A DNA stretch of 64,000 nt, from IMG/VR virus record IMGVR_UViG_3300005253_000186, positions 20,458-84,457 of that record; one strand, given 5' to 3'. The position numbers and the translations under genes were made by a program. The notes under the pieces were generated by a model that worked only from the letters and a program-made list of their open reading frames with translations, searched no databases and had not been told where the DNA came from. This DNA comes from a virus. Position 1 is the first letter of the stretch; every line of letters begins with the position of its first letter. This document shows positions 11,500-43,746 of the stretch, in pieces.

Positions 11500-14356
11500 T
11501 AGAACTTTCCACTCAGGATATGGTACTGTCCACACTTAAGGCAGCAAGGCTTCCTGACGTTCGGAACCAGCATCATGATATTCTCGCATCTCTTGCAGAT
11601 CATAGCCACTCCTATGCCGTAAGGCGCGTCCATGTGGATGATTGGATACGGCTCATACAACCCGTCTAGGTACCTGCTTATACCGTCTCCCAGGTTCTTC
11701 ATTCTGGATCATCTCCGCTTCATCGCTGGGACCACAATAGCCAGCTTGCCGCATCCAATGCAAATAAAAGCATGCGGCCCCTTTGAATGCATCCTATGCC
11801 CATTCGGGGCGTTGCATCGTGGACACCTTTGATTCTGACCTTCGATTTCGACGTGCGGATCTTCGTCGTACATCCCCCTCAGGAATACCCAAATCCTGTA
11901 CCCAATTGTCACGTGGTTTGGCATCAGCGCCTGCCCCCCTTCAGGACGACGGTGTTTACCCCATGGCAGTGGCCGCAGTGTATTTCGGTGCAGATCTTCT
12001 CAAGCCAGGAAGTTGTATTAAGCTCTCGGCAATAGGCGCACAGCCAGTGCCTCCCGCTTGTCCAGGGATTCGTGATTTTCGCGTCAGGATTAACTGCTCG
12101 TACCGCCTCGACCACTGGCCATTCGCCCCATCTCGACAGGAATCGTGAGATTCTGCCCCCGATTGTCCATTTGTAGTCCGTGTGATCCATCAGTTCCGCT
12201 CTCTCCCGCCTATGCAGACGATGTGTCCAGCGTCGCACTCGTGACAGCTAGTGCGGTACGGGTTCGTATAGGTTACCGCGGCAAGTCCATCCATATGGAG
12301 GAACCCGCAGGATACGCAGCGCCAGGCCCTCCGGTAGTCGAAGACAGTGCGGACGACGTAGCTCTCATTAAAATCTCCTCTACGTCCGATAAAGCTCGTT
12401 ATCCTGAATCCGAGGCTCATTTGCCGTGCCTCCTCTTGCGCGGTGTCGAGATGTAGGTGAACCCGCACTCAATGTTCGAGCATGAGAGAACAAGCGGCTG
12501 CGGCCTGTGCTTGTGCTCCACTTTGATGGTCCCGCATTGTGGGCACTTGAACAGGCCCCTGTGTTCGATTATGGGACGCTGTCTGTAGGTCCCCCGGTCG
12601 CCCAGGAATAGCTTCATCTTAAGTCCGAGGCTCATCCCTTCTCCTTCAGGCGAATCAGAGAACCGCATTTATCGCACATGTAATTGCCGTCGCGGAACTT
12701 TTCATCAAAGTTGACCAAGGCGTAATCGATTAAACACCGAGGGCATGGCGGATATGCAAACACCATTCCGCTGGTCACTTCAACTATGTACTGGCCCCTC
12801 GTAAAGGCGAAGATAATCCGTCCGATATTCATTCTATCGTCTCCGCGAGTATCACCAGATAAGATTGACCGCAACCGAGACAGAAAAATTCTTTCGGAGT
12901 TTTGGCTGGGAACCTCACATAGACGCCTCCCATTCCCGTGGGACACACAATGCACTCGTATCTAACGGCTTCCAACTTCTCCCTCTTGGTGATCATTGTG
13001 TCTCTCTGCTGGATAAACGCGAACATCCTAATCCCAAGATTCATTCCGGCCTCCTGAAAATTAAAATGTACGGTTGCCAGCATCTGTCACACGCGCCTTC
13101 TGCGGTGCGGCCTCCATTCCAGTCTACATTAACTATTCCTTCTACGCATTTCGAGCATTGGTACTTGTCCTCTACAAGTCGATGCTCCTTATTGAGGATC
13201 AGCGTCTCCTTGTCCTGGAGGAATGCGTGGATCATGCCACCAACAGTCACGGGACACCTGTTACAATATGAGGTTGCCCGCATCCTCGGCAGTGAGCCCT
13301 GACTGTCTTCCCGCCTATCCCTGGCATGGTCCTTTGCCAGTCTACTCGAATCCTCCCGCCGCAATCGTCGCAGTCATAGGTTTTTATATACGGCAGTCCG
13401 ATGTTTTTGAATTTCAACACACTTGGCGTCTTCCTGAGAAGGAAAACGTAGATCATGTATCCAAGAGTCATTTACGTCTCCCTTTCCCTTATTCGGTAGA
13501 CCCGGCGACAGTAGTCGCAGGCACAGTGAATGGGGAAGATTTTGTCCCAATCTACTTCAATCCTCCCTATGGTACAAATGCGGCAAGCGTAAGATTCTCC
13601 CCGAATAAGAGGGGCTATGTGTACATACGGCAATTGTTCGTTTATGAACGCGAATATCTGGTAGCCAAGAGTAATTGGATAGCCAAGAGCCATACCTATC
13701 TCCTAGGTCTAAGGAGCTCATGTCTTCTAAACAGGTACCTTTTCCCGCACGTACATGTAGTGTAGTGCGGCATTTCCCTCTGGCGCCCAACTCTCTGGTC
13801 GCAGTAGATGCACTTGGTCCAAGAGGTAGAGGTGAACACGATGACCACGTCCTGGTCAAAGCTGTATATGTTGTACACGAGATCGAAAATCATGTGTCCG
13901 AGGGTCATTGTAATCTCCCGGAATCAAGGATGCTAAGGCGCCCCATGATGTATCTCTTTCCGCATTGGCAGGTCAGAAGGTGGGGATTGAGAAACAGGGG
14001 GCGTAGAACATGGGCGCATCTAGCGCAAACGAACTCCCAGGAGCCGGGCATAATCATGGCGTAACTGGATTCACACCTGTAGTAGATGAAATTGAAGATC
14101 GTATCTCCGAGCGTCATGCCCTGACCCCCTCTCGTGCGGTGTTCATCCATCGCCTTCTCCTGAACGCGAACCTCTTCCCGCACTCGCATGATGTGAAGTG
14201 GGGAGCGTTTTCTAGGCGTAGAATCTTTTTTCCGCATCGGGGACACGTAGTCCCATGCAGTGCCTCGCGCAGTCCGGAGTGGAATATGATGGTCAAATCT
14301 TCGTCGAAGTCGTACATGTTGTAGATGAGCTGATAGATCATCGTGCCGATGGTCAT
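11499..14356 (-). CDS. array of 13 small Zn-ribbon paralogues with N-terminal [TSN][LIV]Gxx[IM]xx[FLY] motif (11499-11702, 11709-11924, 11924-12190, 12190-12420, 12417-12635, 12632-12832, 12829-13044, 13041-13250, 13247-13471, 13472-13693, 13696-13908, 13905-14117, 14114-14356)
   Basis: each 65-90 aa with two Cys pairs; many ATGA stop/start overlaps; starts reassigned using RBS and the shared motif. Confidence 0.8.
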
Positions 14357-15462: not shown

Positions 15463-15674
15463 TACTCGGCGTCGTGTATTGGTGCGCCGCCACACGCCAT
15501 GGATATTACTCGCTGGGTCATGACTTGAATATCAATCTTCTCGCTCGAATTTGTCAGATGGTGTTGCAGCAAGTCGTAGATTCTGCCGAACTCGTCTCCT
15601 GGATCATCTTTTGGGGTTCCATGGTCTTCGAATTGAAACATAGTCGTTTTTTCGACAATTACTTCGATCTTCAT
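15462..15674 (-). CDS. hypothetical protein
   Basis: start reassigned to MKIEVI with GGAG. Confidence 0.55.
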   Translation of the reverse strand: MKIEVIVEKTTMFQFEDHGTPKDDPGDEFGRIYDLLQHHLTNSSEKIDIQVMTQRVISMACGGAPIHDAE

Positions 15675-30883: not shown

Positions 30884-31039
30884 AAAAAAACCCCGCCCTG
30901 ACTGGTCTCAGGAGCGGGGTGAAGTCGAGACCAGTCGAAGTTACGCAGGCGAATTCAGGTAGGCCAACGCCCGCGAGGACGCAATTCGGCATGCGCTAAA
31001 GCGCTGATGCCGTAATTGTTTGGCTGACCTGAGTATCAC
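30884..31039 (-). promoter_or_regulatory. leader peptide (30941-31039) plus antiterminator/terminator attenuator
   Basis: 32-codon ORF with GGAG RBS; GACTGGTCTC just after the stop is complementary to GAGACCAGTC inside the terminator hairpin, which ends in a U-tract. Confidence 0.65.
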
Positions 31040-31066
31040 CGGTTTAGCTCCGACCGGAAGAGTTTT

Positions 31067-31141
31067 TGGTAGCAGGAGAGGGACTCGAACCCTCGATCTC
31101 TACGTTATGAGCGTAGCGAGATACCGCTTCTCCATCCTGCG
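31067..31141 (-). tRNA. tRNA-Met(CAT), initiator-like
   Basis: C1:U72 mismatch, CCA; lacks the three G-C anticodon-stem pairs. Confidence 0.85.
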
Positions 31142-37759: not shown

Positions 37760-38269
37760 TTAGTTCAGGCACAATCTGAAAAGATCGGCCCCGGGAAGGC
37801 TGGGCGGGCCATCCCACTGCGTATTGAACGGTTTATCCATCTTCTCGCGATCGAGTTCCCCCCTGGTGTCTGGCAGGACCATCCTTAACACGGTCCTTCC
37901 GCTCTCTTGTGCTTCTATTAGCGCAACATCCATGTTCTTAATTATATCGGAGAGCCTGTCTCCCGCCTTGAATTTCTCTCCCGATTTGATCTTCTCGATG
38001 GCGAGACCGAACAGATTGTGCGCCAAGACCGGAGGCATGGGAGCAACAATCTGAAGATCAGGATGGCCGAAACTTTCGAGGCATCCATGAGTATGATAAT
38101 TGACTCCCGTGGGCGTCTGATCGTCACCACCGCCAATCGCGTGGCAGTACCATCCGTGGTCCTCGATATTTTTCTTCTGCTTTTCCTCTATCTCCTGAAT
38201 GGACTTCTCTTTTGTTTCGTCATCGAGATTACACAGGCCGCAATTGCAACCCCTAGCGTGGACTCTCAT
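37760..38269 (-). CDS. DUF4262-like protein
   Basis: IEDHGWYCHAI...YHTHGCLESFGHPDLQI. Confidence 0.65.
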   Translation of the reverse strand: MRVHARGCNCGLCNLDDETKEKSIQEIEEKQKKNIEDHGWYCHAIGGGDDQTPTGVNYHTHGCLESFGHPDLQIVAPMPPVLAHNLFGLAIEKIKSGEKFKAGDRLSDIIKNMDVALIEAQESGRTVLRMVLPDTRGELDREKMDKPFNTQWDGPPSLPGADLFRLCLN

Positions 38270-38306
38270 GTCTGTAGCCTCCTGCGGCTCATCAATAACC
38301 GATGGC

Positions 38307-38510
38307 TCACCATGTTCTCCTATCCAGTCTGCGCTGAATCGTAATCGAAGCGTCCCGCATAGCCTTGATGCCAACCTCTATGATCGTTCTGTCGTGCGGT
38401 TCCGCTGTCTTCAATCTACGTTCTGCGTCAGCTATCTGAATATTGAGAAGCCTGATCTTCTTTTCAAGCTTATCCTCCCGGTTTTTCGATCGATGAATCG
38501 CTCGAAACAT
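38307..38510 (-). CDS. small coiled-coil protein
   Basis: ORF track. Confidence 0.5.
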   Translation of the reverse strand: MFRAIHRSKNREDKLEKKIRLLNIQIADAERRLKTAEPHDRTIIEVGIKAMRDASITIQRRLDRRTW

Positions 38511-38714: not shown

Positions 38715-38765
38715 AAAAAAAGTGGGGAGGTGGAGGAACACGGCCTAGGCCGGCCCTCCCCACTT
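38715..38765 (-). terminator. intrinsic terminator ending the array/RAMP-like operon
   Basis: AAGTGGGGAGG...CCTCCCCACTT followed by U-tract. Confidence 0.7.
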
Positions 38766-38771
38766 GGTACC

Positions 38772-39413
38772 TTATGCTCGTATCTCTACGAGCTCGAAAG
38801 CTCCGAACTTGCCGCCCCTTTCGGGGCGCCACTCGCCAATGCCGACAGAGCGACCGGCCCTGTCGACTATTGATGCGAGGTCATCCGGCCGCAGAAGATC
38901 TTGGTCAATATCTGCCTTGACGACCATCTCCCAGCCTTTCGGAAAAATGGCTCTGGTCTTCTCGATCATCTTTCTTCCGCTACCGCGTGTGGCGATGTTA
39001 ACTTCCGCCGTATACGGCTTCGGAACAACCTTCGTGACTGGGATAACATCTTCGGGAACATGAACCGCTGCACGAATCAAGTCTCGAAGATCCCAGTCTT
39101 TCACCTCATGGGCCATTCTAGTGCATGCCAGCTTCACGTAGTATCCCGGCATGCCGTACTTCCCATGCTTTCTTTCACTCCACTTCTCCCGACCATCAAC
39201 AGGGCAGAGCGCCTGCTTGAACTGCTCGTCGGGAGTCATCTTCCCGAACACCTTCGGGTCGATTCGGCAGTTACGGATTTCTCCGTGTTTTGTCCGCCAG
39301 TTGCTGCACAGAAGATCTGAGATCCCTCGGATGACGATCTCGATGCTGGTCATCACCATCTTCGGGATATAGACTCTTCCGCCTTGTTGCATCGTTGCCT
39401 GTTCCATGATCAT
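38772..39413 (-). CDS. RAMP/Cas7-like protein, paralogue 2 (Vipr-like)
   Basis: IEIVIRGISDLL first strand; C-terminal G-rich loop RAGRSVGIGEWRPERGGKFGAF; collinear with 39495-40265. Confidence 0.7.
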   Translation of the reverse strand: MIMEQATMQQGGRVYIPKMVMTSIEIVIRGISDLLCSNWRTKHGEIRNCRIDPKVFGKMTPDEQFKQALCPVDGREKWSERKHGKYGMPGYYVKLACTRMAHEVKDWDLRDLIRAAVHVPEDVIPVTKVVPKPYTAEVNIATRGSGRKMIEKTRAIFPKGWEMVVKADIDQDLLRPDDLASIVDRAGRSVGIGEWRPERGGKFGAFELVEIRA

Positions 39414-39494
39414 CCCTCCAGAGAAAGCGGGAGGAGAGGATTCCCGCGGGGGCGAGTTAGTCCTCTCCTCCCAGACAGCACGGAAGAACGCCAG

Positions 39495-40265
39495 CTACTT
39501 CCGTCCGCTGCCCTTTTTGTAGATGATGGGGAAGGCCTCATTCCGGGAGAACAATCTCTTCTTGGGGGCCTTCGTATGCTTCATGGAGACGGGCTCGAAC
39601 CGGCCCATCATCCCATTGCAGGACGGCCTCCAGTCCCCGACACCGACACTCATCCCGGCGCGATATAGAAGATTGAACACCGAGATCTCGTCGATGATCG
39701 ACTTGTCGATGCTCATTACGATGTTCGCCTCCCATTCTGCGGGGAAGCACCCGCGGAAGCGAATGTCCGCGCTCTTGCTTGACGGGAGACGGACCACGTC
39801 TTGCCGATTGTAGGGCGTCATGTTCTCGATCCCCACCACATCGTCTTCCACGAAGAAGCAACCGCGAGCATACGTCATGTTGAGCCCTTCAACGTATCTG
39901 GCAGCTCCGACGCATGCCTGCTTGAAGGCGTGGCCGGCAAGACCGAACTTTCCGGGCTTGTTATCCTTCCACTTCTCCCGCCCGGGCACGACGTAGAGGG
40001 ACTCCATGTACTCCTGGATGGGTTCCCGCAATCCTCTCTTCGGACGAGAGACGTTCATCTGGTTGTCGAGGATTTTCCTTTGGGCCGCAGCCCCGAACCG
40101 ATGCGTGATCAAGGGCGACAGGCCGATGATGTGGATGATGTAGTAAACCCAATCCGGCTTGATGATCTCGATCGTCTTGTTCTCGGCATCCTTGCCGGTC
40201 TTCTTTGCGACCTTCTTGGTCGTCTTCTTTTTCGTGCTCTTCTTTCTCGCTGTCTGTACAGCCAT
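39495..40265 (-). CDS. RAMP/Cas7-like protein, paralogue 1 (Vipr-like)
   Basis: IHIIGLSPLITH, AFKQACVGAA, DVVRL...ADIRFRGCF, G-rich loop RAGMSVGVGDWRPSCNGMMGRF. Confidence 0.75.
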   Translation of the reverse strand: MAVQTARKKSTKKKTTKKVAKKTGKDAENKTIEIIKPDWVYYIIHIIGLSPLITHRFGAAAQRKILDNQMNVSRPKRGLREPIQEYMESLYVVPGREKWKDNKPGKFGLAGHAFKQACVGAARYVEGLNMTYARGCFFVEDDVVGIENMTPYNRQDVVRLPSSKSADIRFRGCFPAEWEANIVMSIDKSIIDEISVFNLLYRAGMSVGVGDWRPSCNGMMGRFEPVSMKHTKAPKKRLFSRNEAFPIIYKKGSGRK

Positions 40266-40379
40266 GTCAAAGACTCCTTCTGGGGTGTGGGACCTTTCGG
40301 CCTCCGGTGATTCATAACTTTATAGATTCTCCGAGTCCTCCGCCTCGGTAATTTGTGTTGGTGAGCAAAATGAACTGAT

Positions 40380-42147
40380 CCAGCCGTAACCTAGCATACC
40401 TGATCGCGCCAAGACGGGCGATGACCTGCCTCCCAGCCACGCCCCGCCGAAGATGGCTTTGACAGCCACCTATGTAAGAGAGGATGTGGGCCCAGAGTCC
40501 TCTGAATTTCTTATACCGTATTTCCAGCCCGGACAAAACGTGCCCTACCGTTCCACACCGCTCCGTGCCAAGCCTACCAGCCTTAACCCGCCTGAACGTG
40601 CGCGACCCTCCCCGACGAGACTTGCACTCCAGCCGTACCCTAGCCCGCCAATTCATAACGCGCAGCAACAGGCTCCGCCCAACAGCGACCTGCCTTCCAG
40701 CCATGCCCCGACGAACATAACGGATCCCCGACCCGACCTGGCGAGCCGAGCCTAGCCGTCCAGCCATACCCTGCCACAACGAAACGGACCTTTCCAGACA
40801 CCTCCGTGCCATCCAGCCGTAACCCGCCGAACCTACCCTAGCCTAACCGATCCGTGCCACAACGTGCCGAACCATACCATCCAGCCGCACCATGCAATTC
40901 CGGACCCAGCAATGCCACTCCGGGCAGAGCCGAGCCTTCCAGCCGTACCTCTACGGGACGTGCCTAGCACTGCCGATCAGCACCATCCACGCCTTCCAGC
41001 CTCAACACAACGTCCCAGGACTAACCTCGCCAAGACCAACCTTCCAGCCTCGCTTCGCTAGCCTTGACGAGCCGTACCGGTCAGCGACGAGCCCGTCCCA
41101 AACTTACCCTCCAGCCGCAACCCACAATAACAGGCCAAGGCCCGACAGGCGGCACCTGACCGCACCTACCAGCCATAACGCGCAGCGCCTAGCCCAACGG
41201 CACCCTGACGCACTTCGCCAGTCCTCCCAGCCAAACCCGAACAGAATAAAACGGATCATACAGAACACTTCCGTGCCGTGCCGTGCAGAACCTAGCCCTC
41301 CAGCCATACCGCACCGAGCCTGTCCGGGTCACGCGGGAACAAGACACACGATGCCATCCAGCCGTACAGGAACACGCCGTGCCGAGCGCGAACCAAACGC
41401 AACCTACGCGGACCAACCACCCAGCCGTAACATGACCCTCGGCAACCAACAGTGACGTGACCAACCCGAACGCACCCAACCATCCAGCCTAGACACAACC
41501 GATCTCGACTTTCCAAGCCAAGCCGAGCCTGACCCTCCAGCCACAACTAGACAAAACAATCCGCCCAAACGGCAACCCCGCCTAATCACGCCATCCAGCC
41601 ATGAGATAACGAGCGCGGCCATGCCGGAACGTGCCCGGACGAACCTAGCCCAACCGGTCCGAACCTTCCAGCCCCACATGAACCCACAGGGCCTAGCCCC
41701 GACGCGCCAGATCCAGACGAGCCTAGACACACCGACCAGCCGTAACTTACCATGCCATTGCGCGCCTAACGCAACGGGCCTCATCCTGCCATCCAGCCAC
41801 ACCCGGATAAATCCGGACAAACCTAACCCGGAGCCGCCCTTCCAACCAGCCGTACCGGGACAAAACAATCCGGGACGGGACGAGCCTTGCCTATCCACGC
41901 CCCTCCAGCCATAACCCGCTCAGACGAACCCGGACTCGCATGACCCTCCTCGCCTCTCCGTCCAGCCGTGCCAAACAACGCCGCAACACAACCCAGCACA
42001 ACACGCAAGGCCTGGCCTGGCCTACCAGCCGTAACATCCCCTCCATGACAGACGGTGACGTACCCATCCAGGGCGCACCATGCCATCTCCAGCCATACCC
42101 CGCCGTACACTGACGAACCCAAACGTTCCAGAACGTGCCAGCCAGCC
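40380..42147 (-). repeat. non-coding array of 30 GGCTGG-delimited units made of GGY-NN pentamers (candidate guide-RNA array)
   Basis: CCAGCC on + strand at 30 positions; 21 of 29 spacings are 48/53/58/63/68/73 nt (5n+3). Confidence 0.9.
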
Positions 42148-42849
42148 TTAATCGCCACCCGCTGAGTCGCGGTGACGAGAAAGATAGATCTTCCTCGGGC
42201 GCTTCTGGTGCTTCCGCTCCTTGTTGATGCCGGACAGGATCGAATCGCACTTGCCCCTGATGGTATTGCACAGCTTCGCGAGAACCTTCATGTACTGATA
42301 CTTATCGGCGATATGACGGAGATCATTCGCGGCGTTAATTAGCGCCTGCTGGCGCATGTCCGGATCAGACATGACCTCGAAGGTCGGAAAGTAACGCCGA
42401 TCCGTCTGACGATCTCCGGTCTGGATGGAGATCATAATCGGTGACTCGATCATCTGCCCTCTTGCGTCCGTGTCGATCACGATGATCGAACGGCAGAGAT
42501 ACTTGGCCTGTTCAATGCGCCACTTGTCCGCTGCGACCTTGTTGACCCAATCAAAATAAGGGTTGAGCGGAGAGGATCCTTGGGACGCCGCGCTAACGAT
42601 GTTCTCCGGCGTGCAGTCAACGCCACTGGATGCCAGGTCATACAGGGCGGCGCCATACGTCTTGGCCTCCACCTTGTTCAGGCGTGCTCCTGGACCAGGC
42701 TTGAAATCTCGATTATCAATGTGGACGGATCCGTTGACCCATACGACTTCGTGCGGACCCTTGGCCTTCGGTGGCTTTCTGGCCGATTTCCTCTTAGAGG
42801 ACTTCTTCTTGTCTTTCGCCTTCTTTACTGTCTTCTTCTTCTTTGCCAA
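42148..42849 (-). CDS. conserved phage protein co-transcribed with the array
   Basis: TPENIVSAA...SPLNPYFDW...AADKWRIEQAKYLCRSI; stop codon abuts first array unit; GGTATAAG promoter at 42897. Confidence 0.75.
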   Translation of the reverse strand: MAKKKKTVKKAKDKKKSSKRKSARKPPKAKGPHEVVWVNGSVHIDNRDFKPGPGARLNKVEAKTYGAALYDLASSGVDCTPENIVSAASQGSSPLNPYFDWVNKVAADKWRIEQAKYLCRSIIVIDTDARGQMIESPIMISIQTGDRQTDRRYFPTFEVMSDPDMRQQALINAANDLRHIADKYQYMKVLAKLCNTIRGKCDSILSGINKERKHQKRPRKIYLSRHRDSAGGD

Positions 42850-42908
42850 CTTCGGTCTCCTGTTCTGAGGGGATCAAAAGAAAACGCTACAGTCTTCTTA
42901 TACCGGAA

Positions 42909-43271
42909 TCAGGTAGCGCCAATCGCCTGCTTCATTGCGTAGGCCATTTTAATGAACACGCCCTCGAACATCTTCTCGATGATCTTGTCGGCGTGCTCAG
43001 CAACAACTTCCTTGAACAGACCAGCAGGATCTCCCCAGGTGGATCCCCAGTAATCCATATCGGAAACCTGAGTCCGGATCATCTCCTTGATGCGCTTGTC
43101 GAGCGCCTCTTTGATCCAATTCTCAAGTTCGCGTTTTCTGCTCCCGGTGACGAGCTCGTAGATCTGGCCCCGGACCATCTTGTCCCATTCTTCTTCGGGA
43201 ATTGCCTCTGTGATATAGTGGGCGACCTTCTGCGCGACGATCGCCTGGATATTCATCTCACCCGCGTCCAT
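42909..43271 (-). CDS. hypothetical helical protein
   Basis: start reassigned to MDAGEM. Confidence 0.55.
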   Translation of the reverse strand: MDAGEMNIQAIVAQKVAHYITEAIPEEEWDKMVRGQIYELVTGSRKRELENWIKEALDKRIKEMIRTQVSDMDYWGSTWGDPAGLFKEVVAEHADKIIEKMFEGVFIKMAYAMKQAIGAT

Positions 43272-43746
43272 CCTTTGCCTTTCCGATCTCCGCGTATTCG
43301 CCTGGGTACCAGGGATACTCGGTTGGATCTCTATGGTAGACGCCGCCCGTTGCCGTTTGGTCGAACATGGCATACGCCTTGAGCCTAGGAAGGGCATCTG
43401 AAGATATTTCCTCCTTGAGCTCCCGGGCTGTCACCCATCTGTATTCGGTGTGCTCGGAGTTTATCGTAACCTCTGGGTCGATGACCATCGTAGCCTTGAA
43501 AATAACGAAGACGAATGTCCCCCCGTTATCCGTCCCGTTCGAGAACACCATCGCGATCTTCGTCGGTCGGATCTCGAACCCGGTCTCCTCAAGAACCTCT
43601 CTTGCTGCTGCCTGCTCCAGGTTTTCGGGTGGTTCAACCTTGCCTCCAGGAAAGTTCCACTTCCCGTTATCCGACCTCCTGAGGACCAGGACTCTGCGAT
43701 CGCGCATTCTTTGGATTACTGTCGATACGGCTACTTTAGGCTCCAT
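43258..43746 (-). CDS. Nudix hydrolase
   Basis: Nudix box GGKVEPPENLEQAAAREVLEETG. Confidence 0.92.
   Translation of the reverse strand: MEPKVAVSTVIQRMRDRRVLVLRRSDNGKWNFPGGKVEPPENLEQAAAREVLEETGFEIRPTKIAMVFSNGTDNGGTFVFVIFKATMVIDPEVTINSEHTEYRWVTARELKEEISSDALPRLKAYAMFDQTATGGVYHRDPTEYPWYPGEYAEIGKAKDGRG

What the first reader, a model, noticed from the sequence alone, without database searches (positions are those of the whole stretch)
38715..42904. Candidate phage RNA-guided system: partner gene + GGY-NN pentamer array + two RAMP/Cas7-like genes (VIPR-like, not CRISPR)
Seen: one minus-strand unit runs promoter (GGTATAAG, 42897) -> 233-aa gene -> 1.77-kb repeat array starting at the base after its stop -> 256-aa gene -> 213-aa paralogue -> terminator. 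Both paralogues end in a GxGxWRP..G..GxF glycine-rich loop, and the 256-aa protein starts with an I.I.G.SPL strand. Established: RAMP/Cas7 proteins have this architecture and polymerise along guide RNA at a fixed nucleotide step. Inference: each array unit is a guide RNA coated by one subunit per pentamer, with the GGY triplet bound by protein and the variable NN pairs reading a target. No cas1/cas2 or nuclease is nearby. From memory this matches recently reported VIPR systems (alternating GGY/NN guides, gapped DNA recognition); I could not verify that here.
Basis: partly seen in the sequence, partly recalled or inferred. Interest (0 to 1): 0.96.

Follow-up and report, generated by a model that had tools for sequence, protein, structure and literature searches.

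The report
Phage VIPR system with two Viprs
A marine-sediment phage carries a VIPR locus, a CRISPR-related RNA-guided DNA-binding system first described in 2026, with 28 guide RNAs and, unusually, a second, strongly diverged copy of the guide-binding protein.

Summary
On the minus strand lie a promoter-like motif, a 233-aa gene, a 1,768-nt array (42147-40380) starting at the base after its stop, a 256-aa gene (viprA), a hairpin, a 213-aa paralogue (viprB) and a terminator.

The array has a 5-nt G rhythm. It consists of 28 distinct units of 48-73 nt bounded by GGCTGG; 20 of the 28 have lengths of 5n+3.

A profile of the 256-aa protein's family matches the solved SUSP1 Vipr protein (E 8.2e-13). 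ViprA keeps the residues that hold GGY in that structure. Of 80 viral relatives, 75 carry a same-strand pentamer array next to vipr, and 57 carry a homologue of the 233-aa gene.

So this is a member of the published VIPR class (bioRxiv 10.64898/2026.04.26.720920), not a new class. This scan has noted VIPR on other DNA many times, including one other two-Vipr locus.

What is unusual:
- ViprB belongs to a small conserved clade, sister to viprA, that has lost the guanine-contacting histidine.
- The unit junction consists of two 4-nt steps.
- The array is very large.
- The accessory gene sits upstream of vipr.

Targets are unknown. One guide matches the phage's own terminase-small-subunit-like gene at 20 of 24 code letters.

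The parts
42895..42905 (-). Promoter-like motif CGGTATAAGAA, 45 nt upstream of the 233-aa gene's start
   Evidence: 7 matches (up to 1 mismatch) in the window, all on the minus strand, against 0.40 expected. GGTATAAG-A is invariant in the alignment, and two copies follow terminator-like hairpins. Promoter function is inferred.
42148..42849 (-). 233-aa accessory gene (vap-like) with a Lys-rich N-terminal tail
   Evidence: Matches phrog_15946 at 2.4e-12. A homologue lies downstream of vipr on the same strand in 57 of 80 viral relatives. No similarity to SUSP1 vap1 (hhalign probability 0.2%). No Pfam or PDB match.
40524..42147 (-). vrRNA array, part 1: 27 head-to-tail guide units of 48-73 nt, each ending in GGCTGG
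40433..40523 (-). 91-nt non-repeat spacer inside the array, carrying a second CGGTATAAGAA motif (40508-40518)
   Evidence: Its fold is not unusual (z -0.8).
40380..40432 (-). Last guide unit (53 nt), downstream of the internal promoter-like motif
40266..40379 (-). Non-repeat leader with GAAGGAG ribosome-binding site before viprA
   Evidence: No special fold (z +1.1).
39495..40265 (-). viprA: 256-aa canonical Vipr with Lys-rich N- and C-terminal extensions
   Evidence: Family profile against PDB 36pp_D SUSP1 Vipr, E 8.2e-13. Matches phrog_4652 at 1.4e-14. H55, R171, D211, W212 and R213 correspond to SUSP1 H17, R138, D177, W178 and R179.
39428..39473 (-). Intercistronic hairpin (13-bp stem plus an inner 5-bp stem) between viprA and viprB
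   Evidence: -38.5 kcal/mol, z -2.4. A role in lowering viprB expression is inferred.
38772..39413 (-). viprB: 213-aa diverged Vipr paralogue without the G1-contacting histidine
   Evidence: Matches phrog_4652 at 2.2e-10. It has its own conserved clade. That clade is sister to the viprA clade and sits on a long stem. Asn or Ser replaces His in 8 of 8 members.
38715..38765 (-). Intrinsic terminator closing the unit
   Evidence: -27.4 kcal/mol stem followed by U7.

Best explanation
This is a VIPR (Viral Interference Programmable Repeat) system on a tRNA-rich phage from marine sediment.

Proposed working, by homology with SUSP1:
- The minus-strand unit is transcribed from a phage promoter-like motif. 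A second copy of the motif lies inside the array.
- The long array transcript is cut at or near the GGCTGG junctions into 28 different vrRNAs of 48-73 nt.
- ViprA polymerises along each vrRNA, one protomer per pentamer. It buries G-G/K-Y and presents the NN dinucleotides.
- The NN dinucleotides read double-stranded DNA with one base skipped after every two. The bound filament silences transcription of rival mobile elements.
- The 233-aa protein is the accessory (vap) partner of this Vipr clade.
- ViprB is a lineage-specific duplicate under selection. It keeps the thumb arginine and the G-loop Trp-Arg but has changed the G1 histidine and a Y-pocket residue. It most likely binds the non-canonical junction step of each guide as a cap or ruler subunit.

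Shown here: homology, residue conservation, array grammar, and conserved linkage of gene and array.
Inferred: transcription, processing, filament assembly, silencing, and the role of ViprB.
For: Homology to a characterised Vipr:
- The family profile matches the solved SUSP1 Vipr (E 8.2e-13, profile positions 24-206 of 208, chain residues 6-189 of 202).
- The same profile finds the vipr gene in the SUSP1 genome (E 4e-15).

Contact residues:
- The residues named in 10.64898/2026.04.26.720927 section 5 are kept in viprA. H17, R138, W178 and R179 are invariant in 5 of 5 A-clade proteins and in at least 80 of 88 other relatives, with gaps in the rest.

Array grammar:
- 5-nt rhythm and G-K-Y-N-N composition.
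- 9-14 pentamers per unit, against 9-16 in the paper.
- Guide units are unstructured (z +0.8 and -0.2).
- The 28 units are all different.

Linkage in relatives:
- 75 of 80 viral relatives have a same-strand array of at least 8 GGY pairs beside vipr. 57 of 80 have the 233-aa homologue.

Viral context:
- 32 tRNAs and a tmRNA, a TerL gene, and the tool calls the contig 'a virus record'.

ViprB:
- The clade has 60 invariant columns across 7 sequences of 45-93% identity.
- It is sister to the viprA clade (SH-aLRT 89), with a stem of 2.54 against 0.65.
- Only 3 representative clusters score E <= 1e-30, among 2,427 Vipr-like clusters at E <= 0.001. The next hit is the viprA-clade representative.

Possible target:
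- Guide 13 matches 20 of 24 code letters in the phage's own TerS-like gene, with the skipped base at codon position 3. None of 1,000 pair shuffles reaches 20.
Against: - No RNA data: no RNA run holds the locus. Transcription, cutting at GGCTGG and guide length are therefore unproven.
- No fold was obtained.
- No convincing target was found. 19 of the 20 in-phase guides show nothing above shuffles in the phage's own contig. None stands out in a 94-kb relative or in 1.07 Mb of other viral loci. Exact and seeded scans of IMG/VR gave nothing better than chance.
- NN composition does not favour a codon position 1-2 model.
- GGY is degenerate here: 42% exact GGY and 68% GKY. 8 of 28 units are off register. 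Some units may therefore be inactive.
- The role of ViprB rests only on residue changes and the junction pattern.
- The sister grouping of the A and B clades has moderate support, and long branches are involved.
Confidence: 0.85

Rival explanations
1. ViprB is not part of the effector. It is a decoy or inhibitor: a Vipr look-alike that caps or poisons the Vipr filaments of rival phages, or protects the phage's own DNA from them (an anti-VIPR).
For: It keeps the oligomer- and RNA-facing G-loop Trp-Arg and the thumb Arg but lacks the G1 histidine. The SUSP1-family papers report VIPR-versus-VIPR conflict and guide hijacking (the latter is the abstract only). The stem branch is long, as expected after a change of function.
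Against: It is co-transcribed directly behind viprA, inside the same terminator-bounded unit. Orthologues of both A and B occur on an ENA contig of the same length, 31,836 bp, which suggests stable pairing. No test was possible.
Confidence: 0.1
2. ViprB is the processing enzyme (Cas6-like) that cuts the array transcript at GGCTGG, rather than a structural cap.
For: The array has no ribozymes or structured tails (Rfam 0 hits at E <= 1), so a protein must define the ends. The junction is the only invariant sequence. RAMPs include the Cas6 nucleases (paper).
Against: Single-Vipr relatives with tail-less GGCA-junction arrays manage without a second Vipr. ViprB has lost, not gained, a histidine at the conserved site. 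No catalytic motif was identified.
Confidence: 0.15
3. The array is not a set of guides. It is a degenerate G-rich satellite or a protein-coding repeat, and the link to the RAMP-like genes is incidental.
For: Long ORFs of up to 166 aa can be read in the array. GGY is only 42% exact. No target was found.
Against: Periodicity is 5, not 3. Unit lengths are quantised at 5n+3. 75 of 80 relatives have such an array next to vipr on the same strand. The protein family is the one shown to bind such RNA (paper).
Confidence: 0.02
4. It is a divergent CRISPR-Cas (class 1) or TIGR-Tas locus.
For: RAMP-like G-loop motif; a repeat array beside the genes.
Against: No Cas model of PADLOC matches any of the 6 proteins tested. 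No Pfam family matches, including Nop. There are no 24-47-nt direct repeats with spacers. No cas1, cas2 or nuclease is among the neighbours tested, which are DUF4262 and NUDIX.
Confidence: 0.01

Closest known systems
Type II VIPR of Escherichia phage SUSP1 (Vipr + vap1 + four vrRNAs; bioRxiv 10.64898/2026.04.26.720920 and .720927; PDB 36pp)
   Same: Homologous Vipr protein with the same GGY-contact residues. Pentamer GGY/NN guides of 9-16 repeats. Small accessory gene. Phage-borne. No cas genes.
   Different: - SUSP1 has one Vipr; here there are two.
- SUSP1 has four ~100-nt vrRNAs, each with a pseudoknotted invariant tail. Here there are 28 tail-less head-to-tail units joined by GGCTGG.
- The accessory protein is unrelated to vap1.
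- SUSP1 gene order is vipr then vap1. Here it is vap-like, array, viprA, viprB.
VIPR systems with 'staggered' tail-less vrRNA arrays (same preprint; fig. S18 legend only, figure and data tables not seen)
   Same: Head-to-tail guides in which the end of one marks the start of the next. The single-Vipr relatives fetched here show such arrays, with a 4-nt GGCA step as the junction.
   Different: - The junction here is GGCT followed by GG-A/N-N, that is two 4-nt steps, giving units of 5n+3 rather than 5n+4.
- The last pentamer before the junction is constrained to G-K-T-R-Y.
- Whether the preprint's data tables include this clade could not be checked, because supplements are closed.
Single-Vipr loci of cultured actinophages, e.g. 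Mycobacterium phage ByChance gp40/gp41 (MH399771.1)
   Same: gp40 is 33% identical to viprA (tblastn 6.7e-28). gp41 belongs to the 233-aa family (3.8e-9). A GGYNN tract lies directly upstream.
   Different: One Vipr, a ~190-nt tract, and vap downstream of vipr. All these genes are annotated as hypothetical, and an ORF is annotated over the tract.
Class 1 CRISPR effector backbones (Cas7 filament capped by Cas5)
   Same: A RAMP protein polymerises on guide RNA at a fixed step and a thumb flips bases (paper). Two diverged RAMP paralogues in one operon echo the Cas7/Cas5 division of labour.
   Different: No CRISPR repeats, no adaptation genes and no large or small subunit. Step of 5 nt with 3 buried bases instead of 6 nt with 1. 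The Cas5-like role of ViprB is a hypothesis only.

Membership tests
VIPR | Vipr protein homologous to experimentally characterised Vipr | tested here: met
   Profile A1 against PDB chain 36pp_D SUSP1 Vipr, E 8.2e-13, near full length. The same profile finds the SUSP1 vipr gene, E 4e-15. A single-sequence phmmer search gives only E 0.1.
VIPR | Minimal RAMP fold (RRM core, G-loop, thumb) | not testable with these tools
Only the G-loop motif G[VI]G[DE]WRP is visible in the sequence.
VIPR | Residues that hold G1, G2 and Y3 of the repeat (SUSP1 H17, R138, D177, W178, R179) | tested here: met
   ViprA has H, R, D, W, R. ViprB has S, R, E, W, R, so it fails at H17, as do all 8 B-clade proteins (N in 6, S in 2).
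VIPR | Tandem YNNGG (GGY/NN) pentamers adjacent to vipr, at least 4 units | tested here: met
   The triplet is degenerate: 87 of 209 pentamers are GGY and 143 of 209 are GKY.
VIPR | vrRNA of 9-16 repeats | tested here: met
   Units of 48-73 nt correspond to 9-14 pentamer steps. The RNA ends themselves have not been observed.
VIPR | Invariant structured 3' tail (type II feature) | tested here: not met
   Only a junction of about 13 nt is conserved. Units fold no better than shuffles. Rfam gives 0 hits. Tail-less staggered arrays are reported for other types (fig. S18 legend).
VIPR | Accessory vap gene in the locus | tested here: met
   The 233-aa family is linked to vipr in 57 of 80 relatives. 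It is not vap1. Which of vap2-6 it is, if any, could not be checked because supplements are closed.
VIPR | Viral or mobile context, no cas genes or CRISPR array | tested here: met
VIPR | vrRNAs expressed, processed and bound by Vipr | not testable with these tools
   No RNA holder is listed.
VIPR | Targets follow the 1-nt-skip rule | tested here: inconclusive
   One guide of the 20 tested reaches 20 of 24 in the phage's own contig under skip 1, against 16-17 under skips 0, 2 and 3. All other searches were at chance level.
CRISPR-Cas class 1 | CRISPR repeat-spacer array and cas1/cas2 | tested here: not met
   No such repeats. No Cas model hit in the 6 proteins tested. Neighbours are DUF4262 and NUDIX.
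TIGR-Tas (features recalled from memory, not from a call) | Nop-domain Tas protein next to the array | tested here: not met
   No Pfam family matches any of the three proteins at E <= 1.

The most novel reading that the evidence does not exclude
This clade has turned the one-protein VIPR effector into a two-RAMP heteromer. ViprA forms the pentamer-reading filament. ViprB has lost the G1 histidine and altered the pyrimidine pocket, and it recognises the non-canonical GGCT/GG-A-N junction once per guide. It would act as a cap, ruler or processing subunit. [quoted passage not shown] The hairpin between the genes would set a low ViprB:ViprA ratio.
Probability: 0.3. Interest if true: 0.75.

Novelty: new variant of a known kind. 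Interest (0 to 1): 0.5.

Why it matters
VIPR is presented in print as a system that needs only one small protein and one guide. Its authors propose that later duplication and specialisation of that protein gave rise to the several RAMPs of class 1 CRISPR (Discussion).

This locus shows that such duplication, followed by strong and conserved divergence at RNA-contact positions, has already happened inside a phage VIPR system. It occurs together with a changed guide junction.

If ViprB proves to be a junction-specific subunit, three things follow:
- It gives a testable model for how Cas5- or Cas6-like roles arise from a Cas7-like ancestor.
- It suggests how guide length is measured in tail-less arrays.
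- It offers a way to define guide ends in engineered VIPR arrays.

The locus is also one of the largest arrays among the relatives examined here (1,768 nt, against a median of 383 nt in 75 loci).

Tried and rejected
Array detection:
- Tandem Repeats Finder found only scraps of the array, because the pentamers are too degenerate.
- A 150-nt Fourier detector failed because the register shifts by 3 nt at each junction. I replaced it with a GGY(i)&GGY(i+5) count.

Pfam, PADLOC and Rfam:
- Pfam gave nothing for the three proteins.
- PADLOC gave only weak noise.
- Rfam gave 0 hits at E <= 1, so there are no hammerhead-interspersed units.

Function of the 233-aa protein:
- No match to SUSP1 vap1, PDB (best E 0.1) or Pfam.
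- The Atlas returns only viral hypothetical clusters.

Genomic context of the close A- and B-clade relatives:
- Scans with the viprB alignment found nothing in viral, metagenome or genome contigs.
- One 2.6-kb locus, L081, holds a viprB orthologue, but its upstream side is cut off.
- That P0004 and P0019 share a contig is inferred only from equal contig length and source.

Targets:
- Only the 20 units of length 5n+3 were used, out of 28. The 8 off-register units were left out.
- Own contig: one hit, described in the report. The other 19 guides are at shuffle level.
- Relative G001 (94 kb, no vipr, no array): nothing.
- 1.07 Mb of other loci: nothing except the seed-selected guide 28.
- IMG/VR exact scan of guide 13: 0 matches.
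- Seed of guide 28: 17 hits. Flank matches are at chance level.
- Flanks-only pattern of guide 13: 2 hits, neither better than the phage's own gene.
- None of the TerS homologues carries the peptide that the guide spells.
- The codon-phase composition test did not favour wobble skipping. It has low power.

Sequencing runs:
- No RNA holder is listed.
- In run X4, from another study, contigs cover the three genes at roughly 83-96% identity. The array is covered only in patches, with many ends that run on unlike. This fits different guides in a sister strain, but it rests on short low-depth contigs and on uncovered stretches, so I do not count it as evidence.

Other:
- Guide-to-guide duplication: the longest shared run is 14 nt, against a shuffle mean of 12.5 and maximum of 16, so there is no sign of recent duplication.
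- The supplements of the VIPR preprints (type tables, fig. S16-S22 images, data S1-S4) were not seen. They may already list this clade, its vap or two-Vipr loci. The text counts 670 Vipr proteins in 667 systems. 'paralog', 'two vipr', 'multiple vipr' and 'heteromer' do not occur in the main text.

Full report
THE LOCUS

On the minus strand of the window the elements run in this order:
- a promoter-like motif at 42905-42895
- a 233-aa ORF at 42849-42148
- a repeat array that begins at 42147, the base after the ORF's stop, and ends at 40380
- a 114-nt leader with a ribosome-binding site
- a 256-aa ORF at 40265-39495 (viprA)
- an 81-nt intergenic stretch with a strong hairpin
- a 213-aa ORF at 39413-38772 (viprB)
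- a stem plus U7 terminator

The hairpin folds at -38.5 kcal/mol (z -2.4). The terminator stem folds at -27.4 kcal/mol. The two proteins are paralogues (31% identity, E 4e-24).

THE ARRAY

GGCTGG occurs 31 times in 42150-40266 and cuts the array into 28 guide-sized units of 48-73 nt. One 91-nt stretch (40523-40433) is not repeat.

Evidence for the pentamer rhythm:
- G autocorrelation peaks at lags 5, 10 and 15 (0.28, 0.25, 0.22). It is flat in the flanking genes.
- Phased composition is G 0.81, G 0.70 or T 0.23, pyrimidine 0.78, then two near-random positions.
- In the 20 units that stay in register, 87 of 209 pentamers are GGY and 143 of 209 are G-K-Y. Base composition predicts 8% and 13%.
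- 20 of 28 unit lengths are 5n+3 (P 6e-9).

The junction logo is G-K-T-R-Y GGCTGG A-N GG (29 junctions). This means two 4-nt steps, GGCT and GG-A/N-N, interrupt the 5-nt register once per unit.

Other properties of the units:
- They fold no better than shuffles.
- Rfam finds nothing.
- No two units share more than 14 nt, which is within shuffle range.
- The GGY-pair detector flags no other place in the 84,457-bp contig.

THE PROMOTER-LIKE MOTIF

CGGTATAAGAA (up to 1 mismatch) occurs 7 times in the window, always on the minus strand, against 0.40 expected. One copy precedes the 233-aa gene. One lies in the 91-nt spacer, upstream of the last guide and the two vipr genes. Two other copies directly follow terminator-like hairpins. 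Promoter function is inferred.

WHAT THE PROTEINS ARE

Pfam finds nothing. PHROGs places both paralogues in phrog_4652 and the 233-aa protein in phrog_15946, both of unknown function.

ViprA has 17 relatives at E <= 0.001 in the word-indexed protein search. A profile of 18 sequences (A1) matches PDB chain 36pp_D, 'SUSP1 Vipr protein', at E 8.2e-13 over profile positions 24-206 of 208. It also finds the vipr gene in the SUSP1 genome at E 4e-15.

The cryo-EM preprint names H17 and D177 (G1), R138 and W178 (G2), and R179 plus helix-1 residues (Y3) as the contacts that hold GGY. In an alignment of 102 Viprs:
- ViprA and its 4 close relatives have H, R, D, W, R at these positions.
- The 88 other relatives have H (80, the rest gaps), R (87), E or D, W (88) and R (88).

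VIPR itself is documented in three preprints, found:
- 10.64898/2026.04.26.720920: I read Results, Discussion, methods sections 18 and 20, and passages.
- 10.64898/2026.04.26.720927: I read sections 5 and 6.
- 10.64898/2026.10.15.759431: I read the abstract and outline only.

CONSERVED LINKAGE IN RELATIVES

A scan of IMG/VR with A1 found 479 relatives. The best 80 were kept; all are at most 41% identical to viprA. Among those 80:
- 78 have a region that passes the GGY-pair detector.
- 75 have a same-strand array with at least 8 GGY pairs within 1 kb upstream or 2.5 kb downstream of vipr.
- 57 have a homologue of the 233-aa protein, in all 57 cases downstream of vipr on the same strand.
- None has a second vipr.

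The largest adjacent array has a median of 383 nt and a maximum of 1,867 nt. Only 1 of 75 reaches 1,500 nt. Relatives' arrays are tail-less and head-to-tail, and a 4-nt GGCA step is the commonest junction. This fits the 'staggered arrays' of the preprint (fig. S18 legend).

Among cultured phages, 34 records match viprA: 27 Mycobacterium, 5 Gordonia, 1 Pseudomonas and 1 cyanophage. All are below 60% identity and annotated as hypothetical. In Mycobacterium phage ByChance, gp40 is the Vipr, gp41 belongs to the 233-aa family, and a GGYNN tract lies under the annotated gp39.

THE ACCESSORY PROTEIN

The 233-aa family (alignment A5) shares a conserved core, roughly SPLH..FEWD..AA..R..QAR. It shows no similarity to SUSP1 vap1 (hhalign probability 0.2%), PDB or Pfam. 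The Atlas gives only viral hypothetical clusters. Its function stays unknown. I call it vap-like on linkage alone. The copy here has a Lys-rich N-terminal tail of about 40 aa that the relatives in the alignment lack.

THE SECOND VIPR

ViprB has its own orthologues (6 hits at 47-93% identity). Across 7 sequences there are 60 invariant columns, including GIGEWR and L-[LI]-C-[NS]-N-W.

In a tree of 102 Viprs rooted on SUSP1, the 8 B-type proteins form a clade (SH-aLRT 100). That clade is sister to the 5 viprA-type proteins (SH-aLRT 89). The B stem measures 2.54 substitutions per column, against 0.65 for the A stem. The tool itself warns about long branches in this tree.

A profile of the B clade, run against 1.84 billion representative proteins, gives:
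- 3 hits at E <= 1e-30
- then the viprA-clade representative at 2.2e-29
- then a large family: 414 hits at E <= 1e-10 and 2,427 at E <= 0.001

At the SUSP1 contact positions, all 8 B-type proteins have Asn (6) or Ser (2) in place of H17. They have Val, Met or Ile in place of the Phe that nearly all others have at M72. They keep R138, W178 and R179.

So ViprB is a rare, conserved, lineage-specific duplicate whose changes fall on the G1 and Y3 pockets. In this array, the only step per guide that departs from G-G-Y-N-N is the junction. I therefore think ViprB most likely binds the junction as a cap, ruler or processing subunit. The hairpin before its gene could keep its level below ViprA's. All of this is inference.

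Contigs of a sister strain from another study cover parts of both genes. Proteins P0004 (A type) and P0019 (B type) both come from an ENA contig of 31,836 bp. Both observations suggest, without proving, that the pair travels together.

CONTEXT

- The window holds 32 tRNA genes and a tmRNA gene, all on the minus strand.
- The contig encodes a GpA-type large terminase.
- The tool calls it a virus record.
- DNA runs that hold it are marine sediment metagenomes from three studies. One sample may be the source of the contig.
- A relative with 47% TerS identity is a 94-kb contig rated 52% complete by CheckV, so the genome may be well over 100 kb.
- Neighbours of the locus are DUF4262 and NUDIX proteins. 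No Cas or other defence model matches.

TARGETS

I read the NN pairs of the 20 in-register units (of 28) and searched with 0-3 skipped bases plus pair-shuffle controls.

In the phage's own contig, with the array masked, only guide 13 (window 41483-41421) stands out:
- It scores 20 of 24 under the 1-nt skip, against 16, 16 and 17 under skips 0, 2 and 3.
- 1,000 shuffles never exceed 19.
- In 1.07 Mb of unrelated viral loci, its best score is 17.

The site is at contig 15494-15528, which is outside the window. It lies in a 398-aa ORF with an N-terminal MerR/Cox-like HTH, directly upstream of the large terminase, so it is probably the small terminase subunit. The skipped bases fall on codon position 3, as the preprint reports for natural targets.

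The four mismatches are central. Two of them would change Thr to Ala and Leu to Val. This fits a guide aimed at a rival's allele of this gene, with the phage's own copy escaping. However:
- None of the five homologues found carries the spelled peptide.
- IMG/VR holds no exact match and no better partial match.
- After correcting for 20 guides, the hit is suggestive, not proven.

Everything else was at chance level.

VERDICT

This is a genuine VIPR system, so the kind is already known. This scan's own notebook lists VIPR-type notes in at least 342 genomes and one other two-Vipr locus, that one with a helicase. I did not check those notes.

What sets this locus apart from the published description and from the 80 relatives examined:
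- the conserved second Vipr with altered RNA-contact residues
- the double 4-nt junction and 5n+3 unit length
- the accessory gene upstream of vipr instead of downstream
- an internal promoter-like motif
- an array of 28 different guides

Noticed in passing
window 9010-37067, minus strand: 32 tRNA genes and one tmRNA gene (tag ADNGYRMAA), all on one strand within 28 kb. This is an unusually large translation-related block for a phage contig.
   Followed up: no
window 39495-40265 and 42148-42849; contig 11694-12254 and 24920-25501: Only 4 ORFs of at least 70 aa in the 84-kb contig have 9 or more lysines in their first 30 residues. Two of them are viprA and the 233-aa accessory protein. ViprB has no such tail. 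The close viprA orthologues share the tail, while most single-Vipr relatives lack it. Its purpose is unknown.
   Followed up: partly
G000 contig 15494-15528 (outside the window; L082): Guide 13 of the array matches 20 of 24 code letters, in codon phase, in the phage's own HTH gene directly upstream of the large terminase. This may be an escape allele of a gene that the guide targets in rival phages.
   Followed up: partly
L109 2158-2345 (Mycobacterium phage ByChance MH399771.1, about 30931-31118): A GGYNN pentamer tract lies under the annotated 'hypothetical protein' gp39 and the 5' end of gp40. It is probably a vrRNA gene mis-annotated as coding. gp40 is the Vipr and gp41 belongs to the 233-aa accessory family. 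This is a cultured relative that could be tested at the bench.
   Followed up: partly
window 4320, 6259, 8941, 11675, 31169, 40508, 42895 (minus strand): The motif GGTATAAG-A recurs 7 times on the transcribed strand, twice right after terminator-like hairpins. It is probably this phage's promoter consensus.
   Followed up: partly
window 43258-43746 and 37760-38374: A NUDIX hydrolase (6.4e-22) lies upstream of the locus and a DUF4262 protein (2.7e-14) downstream. No link to the system is evident.
   Followed up: no
L111 2402-2436 (IMGVR_UViG_3300004585_000009): An unrelated small viral contig encodes a short ORF with the same VIPT..LHRAQ peptide as the phage's TerS-like protein, and it matches guide 13 at 20 of 24. 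This may be a conserved HTH-wing motif.
   Followed up: no
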